DNA of 64,000 nucleotides, taken from positions 71,497 to 135,496 of the forward strand of contig JAZDKZ010000006.1 of the NCBI GenBank assembly GCA_043802485.1, read 5' to 3'. The translations under genes and the position numbers were made by a program. Under the pieces are notes generated by a model, which saw only the letters and a list, made by a program, of their open reading frames with translations, did not search any database and was not told where the DNA came from. The stretch is from Candidatus Aenigmatarchaeota archaeon. Lineage in GTDB: Archaea > Aenigmatarchaeota > Aenigmatarchaeia > Aenigmatarchaeales > Aenigmatarchaeaceae. This document shows positions 20,238 to 31,699 of the stretch, piece after piece (within the stretch, counting starts at the first letter, position 1; each line of letters opens with the position of its first letter).

Positions 20238-21863
20238 GTGAAAATAAAAAACAAACTCCTCATAGGGATTATACTCTCAATTACATTTGTTGTTATAGTG
20301 TCATCTGTAATGTTCCTGTCTAATAAAGAAATAAATAAAAAAAATAAAGAACACCAAGCGACAGATGATATACGTCTGGCTGTATCAGAGCTCGATATAA
20401 TCATGTACGAGTATCTATTGTATCACGAAGAGAGGATGATACAGCAATGGAATTCTAAATATGATTCAACAGCGAAGACTCTGGCAGAATTAGAAGAGTT
20501 AACTGTAGAAGAATCAGAAGAAGAATTAATAACATCAATACGCGATGATTATACCGTTTTTGGTGCTTTATTTTCGCAAGTAACTGCAGCTCATGACAAA
20601 AGACAGACACTCATTCAAGAAGGAGCTTCTCAAGAAGAGATCGATGAGACTGCTCGTTTAGAAGAAATAATGGTTGCCCAGATGTTAACGAGAGCACAAA
20701 GAATAATCACTAGTACCACCTTTCTTTCTGACATTTCGCACAAGAGTACGATTAGAATTCAGTCACAAAACAACGACTTGATTTCATTTTTTAGGACTAT
20801 TCTTGTTATCTCTATAACGTTTACATTGGTCCTTGTTGGCAGAAGCATCTCAAAACCCCTTGATAAACTAGTAAAGGGGGCAGAAAAAATCGGCAAAGGA
20901 AATTTCGAATATAGAATTGATGTCAAATCAAAGGATGAGATGGGAGAACTCGGTTCAGCTTTCAACAGGATGGCTGCTGATTTGAAAAAATCAAGAGATA
21001 AGACTGAGAGATACGGTGGAAGTCTTGAAAAAAAGGTTGCTGAATTGACAAAAACTAAGACTGCTATGCTAAATATGACGGAGGATTTGGACAGCACTAA
21101 CAAAAAGCTTTTAGAAACCCAGAAAGCTTTGAAAAAGAACTTTAGGTCTCTGGAAAGCTTGGACAAGGAAAAGGACGCTTTCATATCAATATCGGCGCAT
21201 GAATTAAAGACCCCGATAACTGCGATACATGGTTTTGCTCAGCTTTTGGAGAATGAAGACGTGATTAAGAATCCTGAGATGAGAAAAAAATATTTGAAAA
21301 TAATAGACCAAGAAACAAAGCGTCTGGGAAATCTGGTAACGGAAATACTTGATCTTTCTAGGATAGACCTAAATACGGTCAGGTTCACCAAAGAAAACAT
21401 AAATCTCTATGAAGTTCTGGAAAGTATAAAAGAGGAGGAAGAAACAAAAATAAAGAGTAAGGACCTTAAAATAATTCTTGATTTGCAAAAAGACCTGCCT
21501 ATTATCTATACTGACAAAGAAAAAGTCACACAGGTATTAATAAACCTAATAGACAACGCTATGAAATACACTCCAAAGGGGGCTATAACAGTCAAAGTGA
21601 TTAGGAAAGGGGATGGCATTCAGGTTTCAGTGTCTGATACAGGCTTGGGCATACCAAAGGAAAGTTTCAAAAAAATATTTACCAGATTCTATCAAGTCGA
21701 CTCTTCCTACACAAGGAAAGTTGGCGGTTCGGGGTTGGGCCTTTCCATCTGCAAGGAGTTTATCAATGCGCTTGGTGGTAGGATATGGTTTGAAAGCAAG
21801 GTTGGAAAGGGCAGCACGTTCTATTTTACTTTACCGATAAGAACAAGACGTAAAAAATTATGA
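20238..21863 (+). CDS. sensor histidine kinase (TM - extracytoplasmic helical region - TM - HAMP - HisKA - HATPase_c)
   Basis: HAMP SKPLDKLVKGAEKIGKGNFEYRIDVKSKDEMGELGSAFNRMAADL; H-box SAHELKTPITAI; N/G boxes LIDNAMKYT, DTGLGI, GGSGLGLSI; GTG start. Confidence 0.9.
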   Translation: MKIKNKLLIGIILSITFVVIVSSVMFLSNKEINKKNKEHQATDDIRLAVSELDIIMYEYLLYHEERMIQQWNSKYDSTAKTLAELEELTVEESEEELITSIRDDYTVFGALFSQVTAAHDKRQTLIQEGASQEEIDETARLEEIMVAQMLTRAQRIITSTTFLSDISHKSTIRIQSQNNDLISFFRTILVISITFTLVLVGRSISKPLDKLVKGAEKIGKGNFEYRIDVKSKDEMGELGSAFNRMAADLKKSRDKTERYGGSLEKKVAELTKTKTAMLNMTEDLDSTNKKLLETQKALKKNFRSLESLDKEKDAFISISAHELKTPITAIHGFAQLLENEDVIKNPEMRKKYLKIIDQETKRLGNLVTEILDLSRIDLNTVRFTKENINLYEVLESIKEEEETKIKSKDLKIILDLQKDLPIIYTDKEKVTQVLINLIDNAMKYTPKGAITVKVIRKGDGIQVSVSDTGLGIPKESFKKIFTRFYQVDSSYTRKVGGSGLGLSICKEFINALGGRIWFESKVGKGSTFYFTLPIRTRRKKL

Positions 21864-22083: not shown

Positions 22084-22422
22084 TCATCCCTTTATGTACT
22101 CCAAGTACCTTTTCTGGAGCATGAAGCAGCCAATGAAAAATATTATGGACCCTATTGAACATAGGACTAGTATATGTATAGAACCGTAAAGTGTTTTCGG
22201 AAAGCCGCCGTGTATACCAGAAAGACAAACAATTTCCCCCGTTTGATGAAGTATTGCGAACAAGAACATTCCAGAACCTATCATAAACGCGTATTTTTTG
22301 AACTTTTCTCCGCCAAAAAATTTTAGAAATCCTATTAACATAACAGTTCCGATTATCAAGAAAAAAGCGCTATATACTTCAGCACCAAGTATTTCCCAGT
22401 GCGCAAGAGTCTCAATCACCAT
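22084..22422 (-). CDS. hypothetical membrane protein (paralog of 22412..22744)
   Basis: 112 aa, 3-4 predicted TM helices; shares FAILHQTGEIV / FAIFHEGLEVIH motif with its neighbour. Confidence 0.5.
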   Translation of the reverse strand: MVIETLAHWEILGAEVYSAFFLIIGTVMLIGFLKFFGGEKFKKYAFMIGSGMFLFAILHQTGEIVCLSGIHGGFPKTLYGSIHILVLCSIGSIIFFIGCFMLQKRYLEYIKG

Positions 22423-22744
22423 CCTTTTTTCTCCTTAAGGACAAAAGACTCGTAATCTCTTTTTTTAGAAGAACGGCTGCGGCAAAATACGACGTAGTCA
22501 GCAAGACTGAGATAATCAAGAACTGCATTTCGAAATTTTGTAAATCATACAATCCGTGTATTACTTCAAGGCCTTCGTGAAAAATAGCAAAAGAGATTAT
22601 AACAACGCACATGAAAATCGAATAGATTTTGGATTTTTTCGAGCCGAATTTTAAGAAGAATCTTATAAGGAAAACCGCACCAAGAGTAAGGAAGAGCATG
22701 CTTATCGCATCTGCCAAAACCATCTCCAAAGGAACATATGTCAT
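22412..22744 (-). CDS. hypothetical membrane protein (paralog of 22084..22422)
   Basis: 110 aa, hydrophobic helices; 11-nt and 4-nt overlaps with the flanking genes. Confidence 0.5.
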   Translation of the reverse strand: MTYVPLEMVLADAISMLFLTLGAVFLIRFFLKFGSKKSKIYSIFMCVVIISFAIFHEGLEVIHGLYDLQNFEMQFLIISVLLTTSYFAAAVLLKKEITSLLSLRRKKDGD

Positions 22745-23205
22745 TCGTACATCTCCGTCAACGCGCCGACAATGGCATAACTCAGCACCGAGTACAGTAT
22801 GAGCGACTCTCCAATGCCCACAAAAGGCATTACAGAGCCTGTCATGCTTGGATTAAGGCCTGCCAAAGAAAATCCTGCCGTAGTGAGCAAATGGCCCAAT
22901 AGTCCCATTCCGACTGTTATCTCGCCAAGACCCCATCTTATGTTAAGCTTCTCTACTCTGTTTTTTATCCTCAAATCATAGAGCAAAAAAAGCAGTAGAA
23001 AGGATATGCAGAGACTATGAACATGCGCTACCTTTAAAAATGAAGGTATCTCTTCACCGCTTGACAGCATCTCAGCCATTTTGAGCCCTATCCAGAGCGC
23101 ATAAACTACCATAAAATATATTGTGTACAGATACACCTTTCTGATGGAACTTTTCCAGCCATTTATGGAGCCAGTGTCTTCTGGTTTATCTGGCATTTTT
23201 TTCAT
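22741..23205 (-). CDS. hypothetical membrane protein
   Basis: 154 aa, about 4 TM helices, conserved-looking HVHS motif; first gene of a 4-gene overlapping operon. Confidence 0.5.
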   Translation of the reverse strand: MKKMPDKPEDTGSINGWKSSIRKVYLYTIYFMVVYALWIGLKMAEMLSSGEEIPSFLKVAHVHSLCISFLLLFLLYDLRIKNRVEKLNIRWGLGEITVGMGLLGHLLTTAGFSLAGLNPSMTGSVMPFVGIGESLILYSVLSYAIVGALTEMYE

Positions 23206-23305: not shown

Positions 23306-23674
23306 ATGGCCAAGAAAATAATGGTTGTGGACGACGAGATAAACATAGCAGAACTTGTCAAAGCTATACTTGAGCATGAAGGGTTCGAGGTTATAGGACT
23401 GAATAACGGACAAGCGTGCTTGGAGAAATTGAAAACAGTCAAACCGGACCTGATACTCATGGACATGATGATGCCTAGGATGAGCGGACGAGAAACAACA
23501 GAAAAAATAAGGGCCAACCCAAAAACCAAGAACATCAAAGTTGCATTTCTAACCGTGGCAAGGTTCTCTGAAGTGGGCAAGGGTAAGCTAAGGGATTTGA
23601 ACGTCTCGGATTACATCACAAAGCCTTTTGATAATAACGACTTGATAGAGCGCGTGAAGAAGGTTGTCGGCTAA
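23306..23674 (+). CDS. single-domain response regulator (CheY-like receiver)
   Basis: IMVVDDE, phospho-acceptor LILMDMMMPRMSG, conserved T (FLTV) and K (YITKPF). Confidence 0.9.
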   Translation: MAKKIMVVDDEINIAELVKAILEHEGFEVIGLNNGQACLEKLKTVKPDLILMDMMMPRMSGRETTEKIRANPKTKNIKVAFLTVARFSEVGKGKLRDLNVSDYITKPFDNNDLIERVKKVVG

Positions 23675-24210
23675 TCAAGATCCATTGTTTTGTCTGCAAA
23701 CATTTTCAAGTCATTGATTAATTCTCTATTTTCTTTTTCTGGAACACTGTCACTTTTCAGAGCAATGAAAATTTTTTTGACATCTTCATTCTTGTTAGTT
23801 AAGCCATGAGTAAATTGAAGTACAGAGAAGCTTTCTTGATATATCAATAAAGCAGATATTGTGTCAAAAAGCAAGACGTTGCATTTTTGCTTTTTGATTA
23901 CATTCTCTATTGCCCGCTTGATCATTTTTATGTTGTTTGGTGAGCTGACAAACGTACAATTCCTATGCGATTTTAATTTTTCATAATGGCTGCTTAGAAC
24001 ATCAACAAAGAAGAAGAATTTTGTATTTATTTTGTTTTTCCTCAATTCGTTCAAGACATCTTTATATGGCCTGCTTAGGCACACATAGCATATCTTGCTC
24101 TTTGATTTCTCTACAGATAGGACTATCTTGTTTAGCTGATTCATGTATTGTGCTTCGCTTAGCAAAATAAGTAAGAACTTGTTCTGGGTTGTTTCTTTTA
24201 TAATATTCAC
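23671..24210 (-). CDS. KaiC/RecA-fold-like protein lacking a Walker A motif (probably inactivated)
   Basis: 179 aa; strand-helix pattern of KaiC-like domains (ICYVCLSRPYKDVLNEL..., VLLFDTISALLIY, IFIALK) but no GxxGxGKT; GTG start with GGAG 11 nt upstream. Confidence 0.45.
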   Translation of the reverse strand: MNIIKETTQNKFLLILLSEAQYMNQLNKIVLSVEKSKSKICYVCLSRPYKDVLNELRKNKINTKFFFFVDVLSSHYEKLKSHRNCTFVSSPNNIKMIKRAIENVIKKQKCNVLLFDTISALLIYQESFSVLQFTHGLTNKNEDVKKIFIALKSDSVPEKENRELINDLKMFADKTMDLD

Positions 24211-24246
24211 TTAAGACAACTCCTTTTAAATATTACAATTAAGCTA

Positions 24247-24293
24247 GTATAAACATATATGTTTAAACATATAGAATTATGTTTAAACATATA
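24247..24293. promoter_or_regulatory. putative operator: two palindromes centred on GTTTAAAC plus a third half-site
   Basis: TATATGTTTAAACATATA (24256..24273, perfect 18-nt palindrome) and TATGTTTAAACATA (24278..24291), centres 20 bp apart; related gtATAAACATATA at 24247..24259; sits in a divergent intergenic region. Confidence 0.5.
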
Positions 24294-24329
24294 AGTAATA
24301 TATATAAATATAGAAAATAATAGTTTAAT

Positions 24330-24449
24330 ATGTCAATTCTCCATTACGGTAACACTACAAAAAACGGAGAGACACTGAACAGATCAAAGAATCATCTTTC
24401 TGAAAAAAACAACGAACTAAACGGGGCTATCGAATTTGTCGGGTATTGA
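24330..24449 (+). CDS. 39-aa mini-ORF (possible precursor/leader peptide), translationally coupled to the UbiA gene
   Basis: MSILHYGNTTKNGETLNRSKNHLSEKNNELNGAIEFVGY; TATATAAATA box about 25 nt upstream of the ATG; its TGA stop overlaps the next ATG (TGATG). Confidence 0.3.
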   Translation: MSILHYGNTTKNGETLNRSKNHLSEKNNELNGAIEFVGY

Positions 24450-25246
24450 TGATGAAAGATATAACCAGAAACTTGGTAGGCTTTATAAGACTTAAAGTCT
24501 GCATTTTCATAAGTACGATAGGAATTATCGGGTTTCTTCTTTTCAACAATATTGGTGTTAAGCTGTTATTTGTCTTTTTGGCGTCGTTCCTGATATCCGC
24601 TGGCTCCTATTCCTTGAACAACCTGACAGACACTAAGGAAGACATGATAAACAGAAAAAAAATCAATCCCTTTGTTCTTGGTAAGAGGGGCTTTATACTG
24701 GTTTCTCTCCTTTTTCTTTCTGGACTGTTTTTTTCAATGTTTCTGTCTTTTTATTCAATCGTATTTTCTTTGATAGGAATTCTGACGAGTATACACTATT
24801 CCTACTTTAAGCTCAAGAAATATTTTTTGGTGAAAAATCTTTACACCGGTTTTGGAATCAGCATAGTGTTTTTGGTCGGCACCAGCAAAATAGGTCTCGA
24901 CGTTTTGTACTATTACTTTCTAATCCTGTTTTTCATTGTGATTATGAGTATGATTTCTGATCTTAGAGACTATGTTGGAGACAAGGCGATTGGTTTCAAA
25001 ACTCTCCCAGTTTTTTTGGGATACAGCAGAGCATTGAAAATAGTATCTGCGTTGATAAGCATATTTTCGTCGTCTCTTCTCCTTTTTAGTCGCATTATAA
25101 TCCTTCTGCCTTTTTCTCTGGCAATAATGTATTCCCTTTACAAGAACAAACCTTTGGTTTCGCATACTTTGGGTTTGTATTCCTTTATTTTTCTAATGTT
25201 TTGGTTAGTTCTAGGAAGTGTGTTTAATGTGTATGGTTACGTTTGA
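24449..25246 (+). CDS. UbiA-family membrane prenyltransferase
   Basis: 8-9 TM helices; Asp-rich motifs NNLTDTKEDMINR and DLRDYVGDKAIG. Confidence 0.8.
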   Translation: MMKDITRNLVGFIRLKVCIFISTIGIIGFLLFNNIGVKLLFVFLASFLISAGSYSLNNLTDTKEDMINRKKINPFVLGKRGFILVSLLFLSGLFFSMFLSFYSIVFSLIGILTSIHYSYFKLKKYFLVKNLYTGFGISIVFLVGTSKIGLDVLYYYFLILFFIVIMSMISDLRDYVGDKAIGFKTLPVFLGYSRALKIVSALISIFSSSLLLFSRIIILLPFSLAIMYSLYKNKPLVSHTLGLYSFIFLMFWLVLGSVFNVYGYV

Positions 25247-26276
25247 GTGGGACAATTGTGACGCAAGGGAGAAGGTAAGAAAATTTGAAATGACAAATTC
25301 TCTAAGCTGGGTAGTTTTGGAGCTTACAAGCCTTTGTAATTTTAACTGTGTTTGGTGTTACGCTAATTCGAATACTCATGGTAGTCATATGAGTAAGAAA
25401 GATTCAAAAAGAATCATTCGTTTGCTAGCCGACAATGAAATAAGACAGATCACTTATTCAGGGGGAGAACCTTTGATGTACCCTTACATCAAGGATGTTG
25501 TGAGAGAAGCCCATGAGTATGGTATGGTTGTTCACATGAATACAAACGGCTACTTTCTAACAAAAAAGATTGCCGAGGAGTTGCGAAGACTTGGTCTATC
25601 TCAAGTTCAGATAGACATTGATAGCCTAAAATCTGAAACACATGACAGAATACGAGGTAAAAGCAACTCTTTCTATAGGGCGGTTAACGCATTAAAAAAT
25701 GCGAAAGAGGTTGGTATAACATGTGTTTGTCAAACAGTATTGACCAAAGTCAATGAAAAGGAAGTTTTAGACATATTCAAATTTGCCCGCAGTTTAGGAA
25801 TACAGCGTTGCAGGGTTTCTGACATGACTCACGAAGGCCGCGCGACAGAAAAGTCGGATATGAGACCGACTGATTATATGAAAACTCTTCAGAGTCTTTC
25901 TGGATTTTCACACAATACAGGTGTAAAAAGCATAGAATGTGGTGATCCTATATTTCCTTTGAACTATAAAGATGAGACTGAGATTACGGGAGGTTTTTGT
26001 CCTGCAACAAAAGGCATGTTTACTCTTATTTCTAATCATGGCGGTGTTTATTTTTGTGGCGTATACAGAAAATTACTATACAATGTTTTTAATCTCATAG
26101 AACATGGAGAAAATTTGAAAGAATTTCACAAGATGAGACTCGAAAAGTTCTTAGAAAGCAATATTCCTTCCAAGTGCGGAGGCTGTAGGCATTACAAAAT
26201 TTGCCGTGGCGGCTGTCCTGCCAGACGGGATTGCGAGAAAGATATCGTTGATTACTGGTGCAATAACTTTAATTAA
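25227..26276 (+). CDS. radical SAM enzyme with C-terminal SPASM domain
   Basis: CNFNCVWC (Cx3Cx2C) cluster motif, GGEPLMYP, C-terminal CGGCRHYKICRGGC (Cx2Cx5Cx3C); start uncertain (25218/25227/25290); overlaps the UbiA 3' end. Confidence 0.85.
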   Translation: MCMVTFEWDNCDAREKVRKFEMTNSLSWVVLELTSLCNFNCVWCYANSNTHGSHMSKKDSKRIIRLLADNEIRQITYSGGEPLMYPYIKDVVREAHEYGMVVHMNTNGYFLTKKIAEELRRLGLSQVQIDIDSLKSETHDRIRGKSNSFYRAVNALKNAKEVGITCVCQTVLTKVNEKEVLDIFKFARSLGIQRCRVSDMTHEGRATEKSDMRPTDYMKTLQSLSGFSHNTGVKSIECGDPIFPLNYKDETEITGGFCPATKGMFTLISNHGGVYFCGVYRKLLYNVFNLIEHGENLKEFHKMRLEKFLESNIPSKCGGCRHYKICRGGCPARRDCEKDIVDYWCNNFN

Positions 26277-27291
26277 AATAAGTTATTACCAGTTTACCAT
26301 GCTTGCATTTCTTATCATTTATTCTGAATTTTTTATCAATAAGCCACAGATAACCTAAAATCACTTCTGCTAAAAAATCCCAGTTATCTTCTTCTATCTG
26401 CATTCCATGCGGCAGGTTACTTATTTCGAATAAAATTCTATTTTTTTTGTTTATTATATTCACGACGCCCCAACCCATAGAATGGAGTAAGGTTTTAATC
26501 ATATTGAGTTTCTTGTCGCATGATGATTTTTTTATTATAATCTGTCTGAAGAAATCGTAAGATATTTTCGGTACTTTGTCCAAGAGTATTTTTCTATTGC
26601 CTAGTATATGAAATCCGGTATTTTCCACATACCACAAGTCCTTTCCTCTGAAAAGGATTCTATTTGAATCCCCCTTTAGCTGAAATATGCCAGACTCCAG
26701 GACACTTTTCAATGTTATTCCCTTCGATCCAGAAGAGAGATTTAGTCTGTCATACTGCTCTTTTTTCTTTGATGGTAGAGGTGAGAATTTTTTATCTAGC
26801 AATTCGTAGAAATACCTGCAGCTTTTTCTCGTCTGTATTTTTTTACTACAAAACACTTGAGAACTGAATAAAACATTTAGTATGCCTGCATAAAAACCTG
26901 TCAGACACTCATTCTTTCCTATTAGCCTTGTTACAGTCTCTTCTCTTGTCTCTATTAGAATCTTGTTGTTTTTTTTGATAGCGTGCAGGTCTGAAAGCAG
27001 ACCCAGATTTATCCAAACCTTTTTCATTATATTATTCAGAAAGAATATCGGAGTTCTTTTGAAAATGTTAGGAACCATTCTGTCCATAACAAGATTCATC
27101 CATTTCTGCCCAATCTCGGCTATTTCAGCTTCATGACCAGAATTTTCGCATAATTTTACATAATTTGCTATAATCTCTTCAAAAATTAAGACGTTTCTTC
27201 TACTTTTTATTTTGAATCTGTTTGTAATCCATCCAGTATTAGTCTGTATTAGATTTTTTCTTATAGAAACGGATAGCCTCATATCAAACAA
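26269..27291 (-). CDS. double V4R-like domain protein (putative small-hydrophobic-ligand binding)
   Basis: 340 aa; GKNECLTGFYAGILNVLFS...CRYFYEL resembles the V4R C..G..G...C pattern; second half GIFQLKGDSNRILFRGKDLWYV...MGWGVVNI... is a weaker repeat; 8-nt overlap with the upstream KaiC-like gene. Confidence 0.5.
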   Translation of the reverse strand: MFDMRLSVSIRKNLIQTNTGWITNRFKIKSRRNVLIFEEIIANYVKLCENSGHEAEIAEIGQKWMNLVMDRMVPNIFKRTPIFFLNNIMKKVWINLGLLSDLHAIKKNNKILIETREETVTRLIGKNECLTGFYAGILNVLFSSQVFCSKKIQTRKSCRYFYELLDKKFSPLPSKKKEQYDRLNLSSGSKGITLKSVLESGIFQLKGDSNRILFRGKDLWYVENTGFHILGNRKILLDKVPKISYDFFRQIIIKKSSCDKKLNMIKTLLHSMGWGVVNIINKKNRILFEISNLPHGMQIEEDNWDFLAEVILGYLWLIDKKFRINDKKCKHGKLVITYFN

Positions 27292-27958
27292 TCTTGGCGG
27301 TCGATAATTTTAAGCCTTTTTTGTTGATGAACAATTCGTGATTCACTCTCGGGTCAAAAGACGTATAACGAAGTTTGCAAATCTCCAGCGTCCTTTTGGG
27401 TTTCTCCTCAAGGTCCAGGAAGGATATGTGCAAGACGCCGTCGACCTCGAACGACTCGCTGTTCCCGCTATCAATGTCTTCTCCAACAGTCTCGCAAATG
27501 AGCAGGCTGCATTTAGATTTCTCCTTCAGATACTTTATTATGTCCGACAATTTTATCCTGTATTCCTTCTTGTTCTTGGCGTGCATGAGAATCTTGTTGA
27601 CGTTGTCTATGACAAGCCTGTCCACTTTGGGATATTCCAGGAAAAGCTTTGCCAGCTGCTCTAGGTTTATTTTCTCGCCCAGGGGCAGGCATTCTATGAG
27701 CAGGTTCTTGTCTATGTAATTTTTCGCTTTTTTAAGGCTGGTTATGCTTTCGCATGCTCTTAGTAGCTCTTCCTTGCTCTCTGAAACAGAAAGATAATAG
27801 CACCTTTCTCCCTTTGCAGCGCCCTCGACTAAGAAGTTTAAACCTATCAAAGTTTTTCCTGTGCCAGGGCCACCGGAAAGAAGAATAACAGTTCTAGAGG
27901 GAAACCCACCTTCTGTCAACTTATCCAGTCTTGGCAAACCTGTTGTTATTCTCATCAT
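27284..27958 (-). CDS. single-domain KaiC/RadA-like ATPase
   Basis: ITTGLPRLDKLTEGGFPSRTVILLSGGPGTGKTLIGLNFL (Walker A) and RLVIDNV (Walker B-like). Confidence 0.85.
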   Translation of the reverse strand: MMRITTGLPRLDKLTEGGFPSRTVILLSGGPGTGKTLIGLNFLVEGAAKGERCYYLSVSESKEELLRACESITSLKKAKNYIDKNLLIECLPLGEKINLEQLAKLFLEYPKVDRLVIDNVNKILMHAKNKKEYRIKLSDIIKYLKEKSKCSLLICETVGEDIDSGNSESFEVDGVLHISFLDLEEKPKRTLEICKLRYTSFDPRVNHELFINKKGLKLSTAKIV

Positions 27959-28281
27959 TCATCACCAAATACAGGCTTTCCTATCGTTGATTCCTGTAGT
28001 TTTATTAAAAGAAACTTTTCATCGCCCAAGTCAAAGACTTGTGACGGCGCCTTTTTTATAAGACTTATGTCATGCCTTTTCAGTATCTTGTTGGGCAGCA
28101 TTATTCTGTTGCTGTTGCCTAGCTTTCCGGTTGTAAGCGACTCGCTCAATATGCTCATCTCAGTGGGCAACAACAGGAGCTTTTTAGTGGACTGCTTCAA
28201 AAGACCATACTCTTTTTTCGTCAGCTCAAGCTTAACAAGAATCTTGTCGTTTTTCATATCCATGGAGTCTATATTTGCCAT
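27955..28281 (-). CDS. putative AbrB/SpoVT-type DNA-binding protein
   Basis: 108 aa; NRIMLPNKILKRHDI resembles the swapped-hairpin AbrB motif; first gene of the AbrB-KaiC-V4R operon (4-nt overlap). Confidence 0.45.
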   Translation of the reverse strand: MANIDSMDMKNDKILVKLELTKKEYGLLKQSTKKLLLLPTEMSILSESLTTGKLGNSNRIMLPNKILKRHDISLIKKAPSQVFDLGDEKFLLIKLQESTIGKPVFGDE

Positions 28282-28374
28282 AGTTTATATATTTGGAAGA
28301 TATATTTAAATAAAATGTATTGTTTGTTAACATTTTAATAATAGATGATTTATTGTATTATTATGCTGATGACT

Positions 28375-28746
28375 ATGGCCAAGAAAATAATGGTTGTGGA
28401 CGACGACGAGATTATGATAAACCTCGTGAAAGATGTTTTGGAGCAAGGTGGGTTCGAGGTCATTGACGTAAACAACGGGCAAGCGTGCTTGGAGAAATTG
28501 AAAACAGTCAAACCGGACCTGATACTCATGGACATGATGATGCCAAGGATGAGCGGACGAGATACGGTAGACAAGATAAGAAAAAACCCACATACCATGG
28601 ACTTGAAGATAGCGTTTCTAACGGTGGTCAGATTCACTGACTTGGGAAAAGATACCTTGAAAGACCTAAACATTTCAGACTATATAACAAAGCCGTTCAA
28701 CAACAACGACCTTATCGCGAGAGTAAAAAAAATTGTAGGACAATAA
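28375..28746 (+). CDS. single-domain response regulator (CheY-like receiver), paralog of 23306..23674
   Basis: IMVVDDDE, LILMDMMMPRMSG, FLTV, YITKPF; start set to MAKKIMVVDD by comparison with the paralog. Confidence 0.9.
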   Translation: MAKKIMVVDDDEIMINLVKDVLEQGGFEVIDVNNGQACLEKLKTVKPDLILMDMMMPRMSGRDTVDKIRKNPHTMDLKIAFLTVVRFTDLGKDTLKDLNISDYITKPFNNNDLIARVKKIVGQ

Positions 28747-28747
28747 A

Positions 28748-29362
28748 ATGTTACAGGAATATAAAATCCAATTATTGAGGACTTTCTGGGAGAGCTGTGT
28801 CGAGGATGCGATAAAGGCACTCTCCATAATGATTAAGAGTGATGTGAAGAAAACTAGAACCATCATAAAAGTAAGCAACTTGAAGGAAATACCGAAGATG
28901 ATGAACCCCGAAGAGATAACCACAACCCTTGTCTATACAAAGGTTCCTGAGCAGATAAAATTCGTGATCATGTTCTCCTCGTCGCTTAGGGGCTTCCTGA
29001 ACCTCATAAACATGCTGCTGAACAAAAAGATTGACTATTATACCGCGCTGAACGAGGACAACGAACCGGTTATGGTGGAGTTTGGCAACATAATAAACGG
29101 CTATTTTGTCTCTTCCCTTGACAGGGTGTTCGGCAAGGATTTGAACTACCAGGATGCCGTGATATCGACCAATCCCTTCAGGGCCGTGGAGGATTTCGGA
29201 ATGGGCAACATATACAAGGAAAAGGTCAAGGTCCTCGTCTTCAGGACAGACTTTAGTGTAAAGAACGAAAACGTAGAGGGCAAGATGTTCCTGTTGGCTG
29301 AAGAGAAAAAACTGGATGTCCTTTTAGAGGAGATAAGCAGGAACATACGTTTTAAAGCTTAG
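28748..29362 (+). CDS. CheC-like protein (CheY-P phosphatase family), one intact motif
   Basis: 204 aa; second repeat has E-x2-N (MVEFGNIINGYFVSSL); first repeat is degenerate; 1-nt gap after the response regulator. Confidence 0.6.
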   Translation: MLQEYKIQLLRTFWESCVEDAIKALSIMIKSDVKKTRTIIKVSNLKEIPKMMNPEEITTTLVYTKVPEQIKFVIMFSSSLRGFLNLINMLLNKKIDYYTALNEDNEPVMVEFGNIINGYFVSSLDRVFGKDLNYQDAVISTNPFRAVEDFGMGNIYKEKVKVLVFRTDFSVKNENVEGKMFLLAEEKKLDVLLEEISRNIRFKA

Positions 29363-30186: not shown

Positions 30187-30654
30187 CTAATCTTCCTTCT
30201 TCTTGAAGAACAGCCAGTTCTTAGGTGGTTTGAACTTCACCAGAACGTAGCTGCCTTTCAGCTTTTTGCCCTTTATGTTGAATATTATCTTTTTTGGCTT
30301 CTTATCTATTAATTCGAATGTACCGTTGTCCCATATCTTTACTTTTCCTGCCCCATATTGTTCTTCAGGTATTGAGCCCTCAAAGGTAGCATAGTCTAAA
30401 GGGTGGTCTTCTACCTCCACAGCCAGAAGTTTCTTTCCCTTCAATGTCAACAACGGATCTTTAGGTATGGCCCAACTTTTTAGCACACCATCAAACTCAA
30501 GGCGAAGGTCATTATGTAAATGGCTTGCCCAATGACGCTGTATTACATAAGTAAAATGGTTCTTTTTATTGTTTGTTTTATTAATCTTTCCTTTAGGTTC
30601 AGTTGTGCCTTTTTTGTCCCGTTTACGTTTTTTTACGTATTCATTTAGAGACAT
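30187..30654 (-). CDS. stand-alone LigD-type 3'-phosphoesterase (PE) domain protein
   Basis: YVIQRHWASHLHNDLRLEFDGVLKSWAIPK...HPLDYATFEGSIPEEQYGAGKVKIWDNGTFEL matches the LigD PE signature. Confidence 0.8.
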   Translation of the reverse strand: MSLNEYVKKRKRDKKGTTEPKGKINKTNNKKNHFTYVIQRHWASHLHNDLRLEFDGVLKSWAIPKDPLLTLKGKKLLAVEVEDHPLDYATFEGSIPEEQYGAGKVKIWDNGTFELIDKKPKKIIFNIKGKKLKGSYVLVKFKPPKNWLFFKKKED

Positions 30655-31699
30655 GGATAAAACCTCGTTTTTTTGAATGGTACCTTTCTCTGGCTCTTTT
30701 ATTCTTCTCTAGTTTCTTTTCTTCAGACTCGTTATCTTGCCATTTGTATTCATAGCATTTTACTGGGCATTTTCCGATATAGTTTAGAAATTTCTGATTA
30801 TCGGATTTCTTTATTGCTATTTCATAACCATTATTATTTTTTACTATTCTGCTTTTTATTTTCAAATGTTTTTGAAATAAACCCTGAAGGAAAATTATGT
30901 CTTTCAGAGAAAAATTATCTGTACATAACTTTATTTCTCTATAGAAATTTCCATCACAAAGATAAAATTGCAGCATGCTGTCAGGATTGAATATAAAATC
31001 TTTAGGTATGTGCTTTATGCTGCTTTTATTATACCACTTTTTTCGCATCAATTCAAATGTTCTGTAACGATGAGTTTGTAAGAAGCTTTCAGGATATCCA
31101 CCATTTTTACACCTCGGGTCGTTTCTCTTTCTTGTTAATAACGGGCTGAATGTTATTCCATATTTTTTGGCTCTTAAAATTATATACTTTAGGTATTCTC
31201 TGTATTTACAGCATTGTGTATATGACCTAGCTTTACCCCCTTTTCTAAGAGGTATGGAACCATCTCCCATTAATAGACCATCAAAAAAAGCTACGCAATT
31301 TTTAGTTAGTTCAAACTCTTTAGGTGGATGGGAGATATTCATCTGTTCATAAGATGTTCTTACAGGTATCTTTAGTCTTTTCATGTATCTTCTTATCACA
31401 GTTCTTTCTATTCCAGTTTCTAACGATAAGCCCTTGATAGATTTTTTTAATTCAATATAATTTTTAATGAAAAAATCTTTTGTTAGAATGTTAATATGCT
31501 TCAATTTGCCTCCTGGTGATGATATAGTTGCTTGTTCTTTATGCGATCTTAGTTTTATTTTGTTTGATAAAGCATATCTTTTAACTGTTGTCCAGTCTGC
31601 GCCAACTTTGTTAGCGATTTGTGTTATAGACTTTTTATTTTTGACATATTCCCTGTTAAGAAAACTATGAGTTAAAATATCGTTATAAATGTTTTTCAT
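30641..31699 (-). CDS. free-standing LAGLIDADG-like protein with two N-terminal HTH modules (second LAGLIDADG motif degenerate)
   Basis: FFDGLLMGDGSI plus weak LQFYLCDGNFY; HTH-like SITQIANKVGADWTTVKRY and IKGLSLETGIERTVIRRY; 14-nt overlap with the PE gene. Confidence 0.6.
   Translation of the reverse strand: MKNIYNDILTHSFLNREYVKNKKSITQIANKVGADWTTVKRYALSNKIKLRSHKEQATISSPGGKLKHINILTKDFFIKNYIELKKSIKGLSLETGIERTVIRRYMKRLKIPVRTSYEQMNISHPPKEFELTKNCVAFFDGLLMGDGSIPLRKGGKARSYTQCCKYREYLKYIILRAKKYGITFSPLLTRKRNDPRCKNGGYPESFLQTHRYRTFELMRKKWYNKSSIKHIPKDFIFNPDSMLQFYLCDGNFYREIKLCTDNFSLKDIIFLQGLFQKHLKIKSRIVKNNNGYEIAIKKSDNQKFLNYIGKCPVKCYEYKWQDNESEEKKLEKNKRARERYHSKKRGFIHVSK

What the first reader, a model, noticed from the sequence alone, without database searches (positions are those of the whole stretch)
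24330..26276. Mini-ORF + UbiA prenyltransferase + radical SAM/SPASM operon: candidate peptide- or lipid-tailoring pathway
Seen: a 39-aa ORF (MSILHYGNTTKNGETLNRSKNHLSEKNNELNGAIEFVGY) has a TATA-like box about 25 nt upstream. Its TGA stop overlaps the ATG of a UbiA-family prenyltransferase, whose 3' end in turn overlaps a radical SAM enzyme with a complete SPASM motif (Cx2Cx5Cx3C). Established: SPASM radical SAM enzymes are typical peptide maturases, but archaeal radical SAM enzymes also modify isoprenoid lipids (ring, calditol and tetraether chemistry). Inference: this is either an archaeal RiPP-like system (a prenylated and/or cross-linked peptide; the peptide has no Cys but has aromatic-x-Asn/Lys type spacing such as YGN) or a lipid-tailoring pair. 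Neither would be expected inside a signalling island.
Basis: partly seen in the sequence, partly recalled or inferred. Interest (0 to 1): 0.65.

Follow-up and report, generated by a model that had tools for sequence, protein, structure and literature searches.

The report
Prenyltransferase–radical SAM operon tied to KaiC
The small ORF is probably a leftover gene stump, not a peptide precursor. The prenyltransferase and radical SAM enzyme are the conserved core of an undescribed archaeal small-molecule pathway that always sits beside a KaiC-type sensing module.

Summary
The three overlapping ORFs, the TATA-like box and the complete SPASM motif are all present.

The peptide (RiPP) reading does not hold. 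About 33 orthologous loci have no counterpart of the 39-aa ORF. The enzyme has no peptide-recognition domain, and no conserved small ORF lies nearby.

The mini-ORF's promoter and ATG align almost base for base with those of an isopropylmalate/homocitrate-synthase-like (HMGL) gene. That gene heads the operon in the nearest relatives. The peptide aligns collinearly with that enzyme's first ~40 residues (p about 0.002–0.08), so it is most likely a deletion stump.

UbiA→rSAM is always convergent with a three-gene module:
- a protein with no Pfam match, modelled as tandem Bet3/V4R-like ligand-binding domains;
- a KaiC-like ATPase;
- an AbrB/MazE-like protein.

A 12-bp palindrome, ATGTTTAAACAT, precedes the operon in 18 of 28 loci (0.07 expected). 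It also precedes inactivated-KaiC genes. Relatives add HMGL, a second UbiA, an aminotransferase, or a cis-prenyltransferase in place of the rSAM.

My best reading is a prenylated small-molecule pathway coupled to a KaiC sensing circuit. The chemistry and the ligand are inferred, not shown. No description of this cluster turned up in the searchable literature.

The parts
20238..21863 (+). HAMP-HisKA-HATPase histidine kinase, a frequent upstream neighbour of the cluster
   Evidence: Pfam HAMP, HisKA and HATPase_c. Orthologues at 46-54% identity lie upstream of UbiA in about 12 loci.
23306..23674 (+). Stand-alone receiver (response regulator, 122 aa)
   Evidence: Orthologues at 57-71% identity lie next to the cluster in many Aenigmatarchaeota loci. 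The precomputed Pfam label on orthologues is Response_reg.
23671..24210 (-). Inactivated KaiC-like protein (DUF835-like, 179 aa), divergent from the biosynthetic operon
   Evidence: Weak Pfam DUF835 hit (E 1.2e-4, below cut-off) and weak FlaH/KaiC-type NCBIfam hit. None of 17 family members has a Walker A motif. DUF835 is treated as inactivated KaiC in PMC5847659. Orthologues sit in the same position in many loci.
24259..24270 (.). Operator copy 1: perfect 12-bp palindrome ATGTTTAAACAT
   Evidence: It aligns with a degenerate copy (TATTTAAAGAT) in L089, L090 and L001.
24279..24290 (.). Operator copy 2: perfect 12-bp palindrome ATGTTTAAACAT, 51 nt before the first ATG of the operon
   Evidence: A match with at most 1 mismatch lies at -120..-21 in 18 of 28 loci, against 0.07 expected. 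Its typical position is -54. It also lies upstream of iKaiC/KaiC paralogues.
24300..24309 (+). TATA-like box of the biosynthetic operon
   Evidence: Seen directly in the sequence. It aligns with the TATA region of orthologous promoters. Function as a promoter element is inferred.
24330..24449 (+). 39-codon mini-ORF: probable decayed 5' stump of a deleted HMGL-like (isopropylmalate/homocitrate synthase-type) gene, possibly kept as a coupling ORF
   Evidence: Its promoter and ATG are orthologous to those of HMGL genes in L089, L090 and L001. An alignment anchored at the start codon to the first 42 HMGL residues gives p = 0.0024-0.075. It has no homologue in other loci.
24446..25246 (+). UbiA-superfamily membrane prenyltransferase (likely start ATG 24449, 265 aa)
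   Evidence: Pfam UbiA E 2e-21. The best solved relative is M. jannaschii DGGGP synthase 6m31, E 1.6e-10. All NCBIfam equivalogs score far below cut-off. It lies immediately upstream of the rSAM in every locus that has upstream sequence.
25218..26276 (+). Radical SAM enzyme with a complete SPASM domain (likely start ATG 25227 or 25233) and a conserved ~30-residue N-terminal extension
   Evidence: There are 197 homologues at E<=1e-10, and the 120 listed are 46-97% identical.
26269..27291 (-). 340-aa protein with no Pfam match: tandem Bet3/TRAPP-, V4R- and H-NOX-like alpha/beta domains (predicted hydrophobic-ligand binder). Convergent with the rSAM gene and overlapping it by 8 nt
   Evidence: No Pfam or PDB sequence hit even at E = 10. 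AlphaFold2 pLDDT 93.6, pTM 0.92. Foldseek matches Bet3/TPC6, BcsD, the MopR V4R sensor and H-NOX at prob 1.0, E about 1e-3. Present in all loci with room. The family has only 251 representatives among 1.84 billion proteins.
27284..27958 (-). Single-domain KaiC-like ATPase (224 aa) with an intact Walker A motif (GGPGTGKT)
   Evidence: Pfam PF06745 E 9.6e-36. All 35 family members keep Walker A. Orthologues at 48-72% identity lie in the cluster.
27955..28281 (-). 108-aa protein with the invariant motif LTTGKLGNSNRIMLP: probable AbrB/MazE/SpoVT-type swapped-hairpin DNA binder
   Evidence: Alignments A4 and A5. Seven of 19 members weakly match Pfam MazE_antitoxin, best E 0.0028. AlphaFold2 pLDDT 77. 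Foldseek top hits are all VapB/MazE/C56/C68, but E is about 1 and prob about 0.3.
28345..28746 (+). Second stand-alone receiver (133 aa), divergent from the p108 operon
   Evidence: It is a paralogue of the receiver at 23306-23674 and hits the same loci.

Best explanation
SHOWN. UbiA and the SPASM radical SAM enzyme form the invariant core of a gene cluster found in more than 30 loci. Most are Aenigmatarchaeota. Others are labelled Nanohaloarchaea, 'Nanoarchaeota', Hydrothermarchaeum and Altiarchaeales. The gene order is UbiA -> rSAM -> <- p340 <- KaiC-like ATPase <- p108. Many loci also carry an inactivated KaiC, a receiver and a histidine kinase upstream.

A 12-bp palindrome, ATGTTTAAACAT, sits about 54 nt before the first start codon of the biosynthetic operon. 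The same palindrome precedes inactivated-KaiC and KaiC paralogues.

In the nearest relatives the operon starts with an isopropylmalate/homocitrate-synthase-like (HMGL) gene. More distant variants add a second UbiA and an aminotransferase, or carry a cis-prenyltransferase in the rSAM slot.

INFERRED.
1. The 39-codon ORF is the decayed first ~40 codons of the deleted HMGL gene. It is not a precursor peptide. It still starts at the operon's probably leaderless start codon, and its stop overlaps the UbiA ATG. At most it hands ribosomes on to UbiA.
2. UbiA attaches a polyprenyl chain to a small non-peptide acceptor.
3. The soluble rSAM/SPASM enzyme then carries out a radical tailoring step on that lipidic intermediate. 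This could be C-C or C-O bond formation, or an oxidative decarboxylation.
4. The tandem Bet3/V4R-like protein binds the hydrophobic product or intermediate. It passes that information through the KaiC-like ATPase to the AbrB/MazE-like protein.
5. The AbrB/MazE-like protein is the candidate binder of the palindrome. That would make a feedback or signalling loop.
For: Cluster conservation. tblastn of the window proteins against 33 orthologous loci found UbiA, rSAM and p340 in every locus with enough sequence, and KaiC plus p108 in about 24. Flanking genes differ widely. Linkage survives rearrangement: KaiC and p108 moved upstream in L015, and HxlR, RadC or aminotransferase genes are inserted in L001 and L086-L088. 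Look-ups that started from p108 instead of the rSAM found the same UbiA operon.

Operator. 18 of 28 loci carry it, against 0.07 expected. It lies just upstream of HMGL wherever HMGL is the first gene. It also lies before iKaiC/KaiC paralogues.

Mini-ORF.
- It is absent elsewhere.
- Its promoter and ATG align almost base for base with the HMGL promoters of L089, L090 and L001.
- Every nearest relative whose upstream sequence is available has HMGL->UbiA->rSAM: L089 at 60%, L001 at 59% and L090 at 56% rSAM identity.
- Alignment anchored at the start codon gives p = 0.0024-0.075.

Small-molecule or isoprenoid chemistry.
- UbiA keeps both Asp-rich motifs, and its nearest relative is DGGGP synthase.
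- Operon partners are a LeuA/NifV-type synthase, a second UbiA, an Asp-aminotransferase-like enzyme and a cis-prenyltransferase.
- A type-2 IPP isomerase lies two genes away in 6 loci.

p340. The model is high-confidence and matches lipid- and aromatic-ligand-binding folds. V4R domains act as sensor domains in archaeal and bacterial regulators (PMC5847659; MsvR hit).

KaiC is catalytically intact. p108 is MazE/AbrB-like.
Against: There are no experimental data.

- The acceptor, the prenyl donor and the rSAM reaction are all unknown. Neither enzyme reaches any curated family cut-off.
- The p340 fold matches have modest E-values (about 1e-3) and cover only one domain at a time.
- The p108 fold matches are not significant on their own (E about 1). 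AbrB-type proteins are not known for reading strict palindromes, and no link between p108 and the palindrome was tested.
- About a third of loci lack a recognisable palindrome, including Hydrothermarchaeum.
- The stump hypothesis has only moderate statistics. Free local alignments gave p = 0.05-0.2, and an 8-sequence HMGL profile gave no score at all.
- Convergent gene order alone does not prove a functional link.
Confidence: 0.55

Rival explanations
1. RiPP-like system. The 39-aa ORF encodes a precursor peptide that UbiA prenylates and/or the SPASM enzyme cross-links.
For: - SPASM enzymes are often peptide maturases. The best solved-structure profile hit is SkfB at 97 bits, and the best NCBIfam hit is the GeoRSP peptide-system rSAM at 131 bits.
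- The ORF sits at a probably leaderless start behind a TATA box and is translationally coupled to UbiA.
- It stays open where chance gives 6-10%.
Against: - There is no homologous or positional counterpart in 26-33 orthologous loci, and no conserved small ORF family next to the pair.
- Most loci have only about 54 nt between the operator and the UbiA ATG.
- The enzyme has no RRE or PqqD-like domain, and only about 30 residues precede the CX3CX2C motif.
- All peptide-maturase NCBIfam models score far below cut-off.
- To my knowledge UbiA-family enzymes are not known to prenylate peptides.
- The ATG is orthologous to the HMGL start.
Confidence: 0.05
2. Membrane-lipid tailoring. UbiA is a divergent DGGGP-synthase-like ether-lipid prenyltransferase, and the rSAM is a Tes/GDGT-MAS-like enzyme that joins or modifies isoprenoid chains. 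The KaiC module only regulates expression for membrane homeostasis. The product is a bulk lipid, not a signal.
For: - UbiA's best hits are DGGGP synthases.
- GDGT-MAS is the second-best solved relative of the rSAM at 86 bits.
- IDI-2 lies nearby in 6 loci, and a cis-prenyltransferase replaces the rSAM in L087.
Against: - Scores are far below the equivalog cut-offs: 55 against 296 for DGGGPS, and 71 against 450 for Tes.
- The rSAM is about 350 aa and lacks the extra domains of the 486-526-residue Tes/GDGT-MAS.
- HMGL-type synthase and aminotransferase partners do not fit archaeol or GDGT synthesis.
- Hydrothermarchaeum would be expected to have its own lipid pathway yet carries this cluster as well (the expectation is from general knowledge).
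Confidence: 0.2
3. Carrier model. p340 and the KaiC-like ATPase are not a sensing device but biosynthetic accessories. The Bet3/V4R-like protein extracts the membrane-bound UbiA product and presents it to the soluble rSAM, in the way proposed for BchJ-type V4R proteins. The ATPase would supply the energy.
For: - Bet3 binds an acyl chain in a hydrophobic channel, and p340 matches that fold.
- UbiA is membrane-embedded and the rSAM is soluble, so a carrier would make sense (inference).
- The p340 and rSAM genes overlap tail to tail and are never separated.
Against: - The module includes an AbrB/MazE-like protein and sits among receivers, a kinase and inactivated KaiC genes.
- The shared operator with iKaiC genes points to regulation.
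- p340 is retained in L087, where the rSAM is absent.
Confidence: 0.13
4. Cofactor pathway (a prenylated tetrapyrrole or quinone). The rSAM acts like AhbD or NirJ on a tetrapyrrole, or like an Mqn enzyme. UbiA acts like heme O synthase, chlorophyll synthase or MenA. The H-NOX/V4R-like protein would bind the cofactor.
For: - NirJ2, AhbD, AhbC and NirJ1 are among the top NCBIfam hits at 103-127 bits.
- ChlG/BchG and MenA models are weakly hit by UbiA.
- H-NOX heme domains are among the p340 fold matches.
Against: - All scores are 4-5-fold below cut-offs.
- No other tetrapyrrole or quinone genes appear in any of the 35 neighbourhoods.
- The DPANN hosts generally lack these pathways (general knowledge).
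- The HMGL and aminotransferase partners do not fit.
Confidence: 0.05
5. There is no functional link. The UbiA-rSAM pair and the KaiC module are neighbours only through inherited synteny.
For: Many loci come from one phylum, and some share flanking ribosomal and RNA-polymerase genes.
Against: - Protein identities are only 32-60%, and flanks differ widely.
- Linkage survives insertions and a transposition of KaiC-p108.
- The cluster is also present in a MAG labelled Hydrothermarchaeum. The MAG labelled Altiarchaeales (L034) is truncated and shows only UbiA plus part of the rSAM.
- The operator is shared between the operon and iKaiC genes.
Confidence: 0.02

Closest known systems
Digeranylgeranylglyceryl phosphate synthase (UbiA superfamily; M. 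jannaschii, PDB 6m31)
   Same: Same fold family and both Asp-rich motifs. It is the best solved-structure match (E 1.6e-10) and gives the best NCBIfam hits.
   Different: It scores 55 bits against equivalog cut-offs of 269-353. The operon partners (SPASM rSAM, HMGL-type synthase, second UbiA) are not those of archaeol synthesis. The acceptor is unknown.
SPASM radical SAM enzymes: SkfB, GDGT-MAS/Tes, AhbD/NirJ, PqqE, anSME
   Same: CX3CX2C motif plus a full seven-Cys SPASM domain, which predicts two auxiliary clusters. Its size (about 350 aa) is that of the 'minimal' AhbD/NirJ/anSME type.
   Different: It is about equally distant from all of them: 60-97 bits against solved structures, and at most 131 bits against cut-offs of 265-725 for the best-scoring models. 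It has its own conserved N-terminal extension (T8, F9, W11, D15, A16, K19, F23). There is no partner peptide and no RRE domain.
Archaeal KaiC-like ATPase signalling hubs with inactivated KaiC (DUF835/MEDS). Proposed by Makarova, Galperin and Koonin 2017, as cited in PMC5847659
   Same: A single-domain KaiC-like ATPase with intact Walker A, neighbouring inactivated KaiC (DUF835-like), receivers and a histidine kinase.
   Different: Here the hub is locked to a biosynthetic operon and to a family modelled as tandem Bet3/V4R-like domains. I could not read the 2017 paper, so I cannot exclude that this neighbourhood is shown there.
V4R / Bet3 / H-NOX small-ligand-binding domains (MopR/PoxR phenol sensors, MsvR, BchJ, TRAPP Bet3 with bound palmitate)
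   Same: The p340 model matches these folds (prob 1.0, TM 0.44-0.63 on the target). A single-domain V4R protein lies beside the operon in L089 (Pfam V4R) and in L001 (weak Pfam V4R hit).
   Different: There is no sequence-level match to Pfam V4R even at E = 10. The protein has two tandem domains, no fused DNA-binding or AAA+ output, and an unknown ligand.
Signal synthase plus cognate receptor gene pairs (LuxI/LuxR, AfsA/ArpA). For the prenylated-peptide idea, ComQ/ComX/ComP/ComA of Bacillus
   Same: Biosynthetic genes sit next to a ligand-binding or regulatory module and two-component proteins, under a shared operator. That is the same logic as autoinducer circuits (inference).
   Different: None of the proteins is homologous. 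ComQ is a soluble isoprenyl-diphosphate-synthase-like enzyme with a conserved adjacent ComX precursor, whereas here the small ORF is not conserved. Secretion and sensing were not tested.

Membership tests
UbiA prenyltransferase superfamily (PF01040) | Profile match above the curated cut-off | tested here: met
   76.8 bits against a cut-off of 34.2, E 2e-21
UbiA prenyltransferase superfamily (PF01040) | Two Asp-rich motifs (NxxxDxxxD and DxxDxxxD) that bind Mg2+ and the diphosphate | tested here: met
   NNLTDTKED and DLRDYVGD are read directly in the translation. They align with the motifs of 6m31.
DGGGP synthase (NCBIfam NF009521, NF009522, NF009523) | Score above the equivalog cut-off | tested here: not met
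   55, 46 and 55 bits against cut-offs of 296, 353 and 269
Radical SAM superfamily | CX3CX2C cluster motif and Pfam PF04055 above cut-off | tested here: met
   C40/C44/C47 are invariant. PF04055 scores 110 bits against 29.5.
SPASM subgroup | C-terminal seven-Cys pattern CX9-15GX4C ... CX2CX5CX3C ... C | tested here: met
   C261, G275, C280, C320, C323, C329, C333 and C348 are all invariant in 34 sequences. Pfam SPASM itself is not reported for the window protein, but it is precomputed for homologue P0064.
RiPP maturase system | A precursor-peptide gene conserved next to the maturase | tested here: not met
   The mini-ORF occurs only in the near-identical L006. No conserved small ORF lies next to the pair in 35 loci.
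RiPP maturase system | A peptide-recognition element (RRE/PqqD-like), fused or encoded nearby | tested here: not met
   Only about 30 residues precede the CX3CX2C motif. No PqqD or RRE Pfam hit occurs in any cluster protein. Structural detection of a cryptic RRE was not attempted.
Named rSAM equivalogs (GeoRSP, NirJ2, AhbD, MftC, Tes, PqqE, SkfB and others) | Score above the curated equivalog cut-off | tested here: not met
   The best is 131 bits against 400 (GeoRSP). Others: Tes 71 against 450, MftC 112 against 265.
KaiC-like ATPase (PF06745) | Profile match above cut-off and an intact Walker A motif | tested here: met
   123.7 bits against 26.6. GGPGTGKT is present, and all 35 family members keep the motif. 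ATPase activity was not tested.
Inactivated KaiC / DUF835 | KaiC-type fold with a lost Walker A | tested here: inconclusive
   DUF835 scores 22.3 bits, below the 33.1 cut-off. None of 17 members has a Walker A. The fold was not modelled.
V4R / Bet3-like ligand-binding domain | Sequence-profile match to PF02830 | tested here: not met
   No Pfam hit even at E = 10
V4R / Bet3-like ligand-binding domain | Fold similarity to solved members | tested here: met
   Foldseek prob 1.0, E 1e-3 to 3e-2. TM on the target is 0.44-0.63 for Bet3, TPC6, TRAPPC3 and the MopR sensor, on a model with pLDDT 93.6.
V4R / Bet3-like ligand-binding domain | Binds a small hydrophobic ligand | not testable with these tools
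   Needs purification and native mass spectrometry or a binding assay
AbrB/MazE/SpoVT swapped-hairpin DNA binders (PF04014) | Profile or fold match | tested here: inconclusive
   Seven of 19 members match PF04014, best E 0.0028, and the window protein itself gives none. Foldseek top hits are all VapB/MazE/C56/C68, but E is about 1 and prob about 0.3.
Anti-phage defence systems (PADLOC) | Match of cluster proteins to a defence-system model set | tested here: not met
   Only generic rSAM-core hits to pVip (about 91 bits over the core). UbiA, p340, p108 and iKaiC give nothing.

The most novel reading that the evidence does not exclude
The cluster is a self-contained archaeal chemical-signalling circuit. 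The [HMGL]-UbiA-rSAM operon would make an isoprenoid-derived signal molecule. The tandem Bet3/V4R-like protein would be its receptor, the KaiC-like ATPase the transducer, and the AbrB/MazE-like protein the output acting on ATGTTTAAACAT promoters. Most carriers are MAGs labelled Aenigmatarchaeota, a DPANN lineage generally regarded as host-dependent, so it could serve symbiont-host or population sensing.
Probability: 0.15. Interest if true: 0.85.

Novelty: new variant of a known kind. Interest (0 to 1): 0.55.

Why it matters
If the coupling is real, it gives three concrete things to test.

1. Archaeal KaiC-like 'hubs' have been proposed mainly from genomics. This cluster would give one of them a candidate ligand-binding partner, a candidate cis-element and a candidate metabolite.
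2. It defines two enzyme subfamilies with no curated family assignment (a UbiA and a minimal SPASM rSAM) and a family with no Pfam match, modelled as tandem Bet3/V4R-like domains. They are restricted to a few archaeal lineages, mostly DPANN, whose metabolism and communication with hosts are poorly understood.
3. It is a caution for genome mining. 'SPASM rSAM plus small upstream ORF' looked like a RiPP locus, but comparative genomics shows the small ORF is most likely a gene stump.

Tried and rejected
- Rfam scan of 24150-24520 at E<=10 found only noise on the palindromes. An RNA fold of the mini-ORF region gave z = -0.73. So there is no leader RNA element.
- I first thought the mini-ORF joined the N- and C-termini of HMGL. 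The C-terminal half showed no signal (p = 0.3-0.9), so I dropped this. The second half of the peptive aligns instead with HMGL residues about 25-40.
- Free local alignments of the mini-ORF to HMGL were not significant (p = 0.05-0.2). An 8-sequence HMGL profile gave no score. Only the alignment anchored at the start codon, justified by the promoter/ATG orthology, gave p = 0.002-0.08.
- blastn of the mini-ORF DNA against the window and all loci found nothing beyond L006 and short promoter matches. tblastn found no HMGL gene elsewhere in the window.
- Distant bacterial and other rSAM hits (L037-L085, 19-35% identity) have no UbiA, p340, KaiC or p108 neighbours, so they are not the same system.
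- The defence-system explanation was rejected (PADLOC).
- Sequence searches of p340 and p108 against PDB chains found nothing.
- Six literature searches found no description of the cluster. The key KaiC paper (mBio 2017, PMC5717392) is not held.
- I did not run the metagenome-contig scan. The 5.8-billion-protein search already showed no rSAM relative between 97% and 60% identity, so no dN/dS test of the mini-ORF was possible.

Full report
**1. Observation**

- The 39-codon ORF lies at 24330-24449.
- A TATA-like 'atatataaat' lies at 24300-24309.
- The ORF's TGA (24447-24449) shares one base with the UbiA ATG (24449).
- The UbiA stop (25246) lies 14-29 nt inside the next ORF.

Pfam assigns the 265/266-aa protein to UbiA (76.8 bits) and the 347-352-aa protein to Radical_SAM (110 bits). 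Both UbiA Asp-rich motifs are present. The rSAM has CX3CX2C and a full seven-Cys SPASM pattern, invariant in 34 homologues. Neither enzyme reaches any curated NCBIfam equivalog cut-off. The best UbiA hit is DGGGP synthase at 55 bits against 296. The best rSAM hit is GeoRSP at 131 bits against 400. Against solved structures the rSAM is about equally distant from SkfB, GDGT-MAS, BlsE, SuiB, PqqE, MoaA and anSME. UbiA is closest to M. jannaschii DGGGP synthase, E 1.6e-10.

**2. The pair belongs to a larger conserved cluster**

The rSAM has 197 homologues at E<=1e-10 (the 120 listed are 46-97% identical), all unnamed. A scan of one genome per species found orthologues in MAGs with these labels:
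- Aenigmatarchaeota (most of them);
- Nanohaloarchaea;
- 'Nanoarchaeota' (L006, 97% identical, the window's own lineage);
- Hydrothermarchaeum profundi;
- Altiarchaeales.

tblastn of the window's proteins against these loci, and an all-against-all clustering of their ORFs, gave a consistent picture.
- UbiA is immediately upstream of the rSAM in every locus with upstream sequence.
- A ~340-aa protein (window 26269-27291, minus strand) is convergent with the rSAM in every locus with downstream sequence.
- A KaiC-like ATPase (27284-27958) and a ~108-aa protein (27955-28281) follow in about 24 loci.
- Many loci also have, upstream, the same histidine kinase, receiver and DUF835-like protein as the window.

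Flanking genes otherwise differ. They include tRNA synthetases, RNA polymerase, ribosomal proteins and glycosyltransferases. Linkage survives a transposition of KaiC-p108 (L015) and insertions of HxlR, RadC or aminotransferase genes. Look-ups that started from p108 returned the same operon. Distant rSAM relatives in bacteria have none of these neighbours. So the pair is not an intruder in a signalling island. It is a fixed component of it.

**3. The module proteins**

- KaiC-like ATPase. It has a strong PF06745 match, and all 35 family members keep an intact Walker A.
- DUF835-like neighbour. None of its 17 family members has a Walker A. DUF835 is regarded as an inactivated KaiC (PMC5847659).
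- p340. It has no Pfam or PDB sequence match even at E = 10. Its family is small, with 251 representatives among 1.84 billion proteins. An AlphaFold2 model from 38 homologues is confident (pLDDT 93.6, pTM 0.92) and shows two tandem alpha/beta domains. Foldseek matches are Bet3/TPC6/TRAPPC3 (which bind palmitate), BcsD, the V4R aromatic-sensor domain of MopR, and H-NOX (prob 1.0, E about 1e-3, TM 0.44-0.63 on the target). I read p340 as a tandem Bet3/V4R-type binder of a hydrophobic ligand.
- p108. It carries the invariant motif LTTGKLGNSNRIMLP. Seven of 19 members weakly match Pfam MazE_antitoxin. Its model (pLDDT 77) finds only VapB/MazE/AbrB-type domains at the top of the list, though not significantly. 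It is probably a swapped-hairpin DNA binder, with moderate confidence.

**4. A conserved operator**

The window has two perfect copies of ATGTTTAAACAT, at 24259-24270 and 24279-24290. They lie between the DUF835-like gene and the mini-ORF.
- The core GTTTAAAC lies 50-125 nt upstream of UbiA in 16 of 26 loci.
- It lies about 1200 nt upstream of UbiA in L001, L012 and L026. That is just before the HMGL-like gene, which is the first gene of the operon there.
- With at most 1 mismatch, the 12-mer occurs at -120..-21 of the first operon gene in 18 of 28 loci, against 0.07 expected from shuffles.
- Its usual position is -54, followed by a TATA-like element near -33.
- The same palindrome lies upstream of additional DUF835-like and KaiC paralogues.
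- The p108 operon has its own, different promoter (AAAAGTTTAAATAT at -32).

So the biosynthetic operon and the inactivated-KaiC genes share a cis-element. Which protein binds it was not tested. p108 is my candidate.

**5. The mini-ORF**

It has no homologue in any other locus by tblastn. None turned up on inspecting the region upstream of UbiA in 26 loci, nor among 314 small intergenic ORFs. The L006 copy is identical in DNA and so carries no information. Its open frame is only mildly unlikely, at 6-10%. There is no Rfam match and no unusual RNA structure.

Every nearest relative whose upstream sequence is available starts the operon with an HMGL-like gene. These are L089 (60% rSAM identity), L001 (59%) and L090 (56%). 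That gene is of the LeuA/CimA/NifV type: TIGR02090 scores 350-376 bits, below its cut-off of 485. The window promoter aligns almost base for base with the promoters of those genes. The alignment covers the palindrome, the TATA element and 'ATAATAGTTTAA(T/C)ATG', so ATG 24330 is orthologous to the HMGL start codon.

Anchored at that codon, the 39 residues align collinearly with the first ~40 HMGL residues:
- MSILHYGNTT-KNGETL against MRRPLIFDTTLRDGEQM;
- SEKNNEL against EEKI-EL;
- EF against SEF.

Shuffle p-values are 0.0024 (L001), 0.008 (L026), 0.04 (L090) and 0.075 (L089). Unanchored tests were not significant. No HMGL gene exists elsewhere in the window.

I conclude, at about two-thirds confidence, that the mini-ORF is the decayed 5' stump left by a deletion of the HMGL gene. 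It starts at the probable leaderless start and stops on the UbiA ATG, so it may still serve translational coupling. That step is inferred.

**6. What the enzymes probably do**

Variants of the operon add other genes.
- HMGL occurs in 10 loci.
- A second UbiA occurs in L016 and L086-L088.
- An Asp-aminotransferase-like enzyme occurs in L021 and L086-L088.
- In L087 a cis-prenyltransferase sits exactly in the rSAM slot while p340, KaiC and p108 remain.
- A bona fide type-2 IPP isomerase lies two genes away in six loci.

This gene content is that of a small-molecule, isoprenoid-type pathway, not a peptide pathway. The acceptor, the chain length and the rSAM reaction remain unknown. PADLOC gave no defence-system signature.

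**7. Proposed mechanism (inferred)**

1. The operon is transcribed from the palindrome-controlled promoter.
2. UbiA prenylates a small acceptor at the membrane.
3. The soluble SPASM enzyme carries out a radical tailoring step.
4. The tandem Bet3/V4R-like protein binds the lipidic product or intermediate.
5. Through the KaiC-like ATPase and the AbrB/MazE-like protein, it feeds back on palindrome promoters, including those of inactivated-KaiC genes.

The rivals are a regulated membrane-lipid modification, a carrier role for p340 and KaiC, a cofactor pathway, a RiPP system and mere synteny. They are weighed separately in the report.

**8. Comparison and novelty**

Each component belongs to a known superfamily, but none reaches a curated subfamily. 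I found no paper describing the combination. The 2017 KaiC-hub paper could not be read. I classify the cluster as a new variant of a known kind: a biosynthetic operon with a dedicated sensing or regulatory module. The RiPP claim itself is not supported.

Noticed in passing
window 28748-29362 (+): This 204-aa protein lies directly after the receiver at 28345-28746. It has no Pfam family. Its only PDB sequence hits are CheC phosphatases of the same length, aligned collinearly (8-130 against 9-131), but at E 0.47. It may be a CheC-like receiver phosphatase. It is not conserved in the other loci.
   Followed up: partly
window 22084-23205 (-): Three consecutive small hydrophobic proteins (112, 110 and 154 aa) lie between the histidine kinase and the receiver. 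They give only sub-threshold Pfam hits (MASE1-like, DUF7649) and have no counterparts in the related loci.
   Followed up: partly
L087 6766-7500 (-): In one variant cluster a cis-prenyltransferase (UPP-synthase family, Pfam PF01255; TIGR00055 96 bits, just below its cut-off of 110) occupies the exact slot of the rSAM. HMGL, two UbiAs, p340, KaiC and p108 are all kept. This looks like a non-orthologous replacement of the tailoring enzyme.
   Followed up: partly
L001 9111-9314, L007 2859-2957, L023 10120-10233, L086 9023-9127, L087 4437-4535: A conserved 32-37-aa helical mini-protein (for example MPNDTILLKRLIKITKNIESELKKIRKLLEKN) lies just downstream of the KaiC-like gene, on the opposite strand, in five loci. 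The window has no copy, because KaiC and p340 overlap there.
   Followed up: no
L014 4427-4585, L022 11151-11312, L031 11140-11286, L032 3272-3424: A conserved ~50-aa zinc-ribbon-like protein (CPxCG ... CPKC) lies just upstream of the p108 operon in four loci.
   Followed up: no
L010 1129-2130 and equivalents in L013, L018, L022, L031, L033: A type-2 isopentenyl-diphosphate isomerase (TIGR02151, 400 bits, above its cut-off) lies two genes upstream of UbiA in six loci. This may be only local synteny within one clade.
   Followed up: partly
L089 116-511 (-), L001 3525-3983 (-), L090 3547-3936 (-): A small single-domain protein lies divergent from the HMGL-UbiA-rSAM operon in the window's nearest relatives. 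It matches Pfam V4R in L089 and weakly in L001, and has no Pfam hit in L090. The L089 copy gives a weak hit to the sensor part of MsvR. In the window that position is held by the DUF835-like gene.
   Followed up: partly
L036 7365-8410 and 8479-9479; L020 9078-10074: The rSAM and/or p340 genes are split across two reading frames in these MAG contigs. This is either pseudogenisation or assembly error.
   Followed up: no
window 30641-31699 (-) and 30187-30654 (-): A free-standing LAGLIDADG_2 endonuclease-like ORF (352 aa) lies next to a LigD 3'-phosphoesterase-domain protein and an AP-endonuclease-2 TIM-barrel protein. These genes are unrelated to the cluster.
   Followed up: no
window 27836-27843 and L001 9871-9878: A third GTTTAAAC lies inside the KaiC-like gene, at the same codon position in both loci, where it encodes G-L-N-F. 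It is most likely a coding coincidence rather than an operator.
   Followed up: partly
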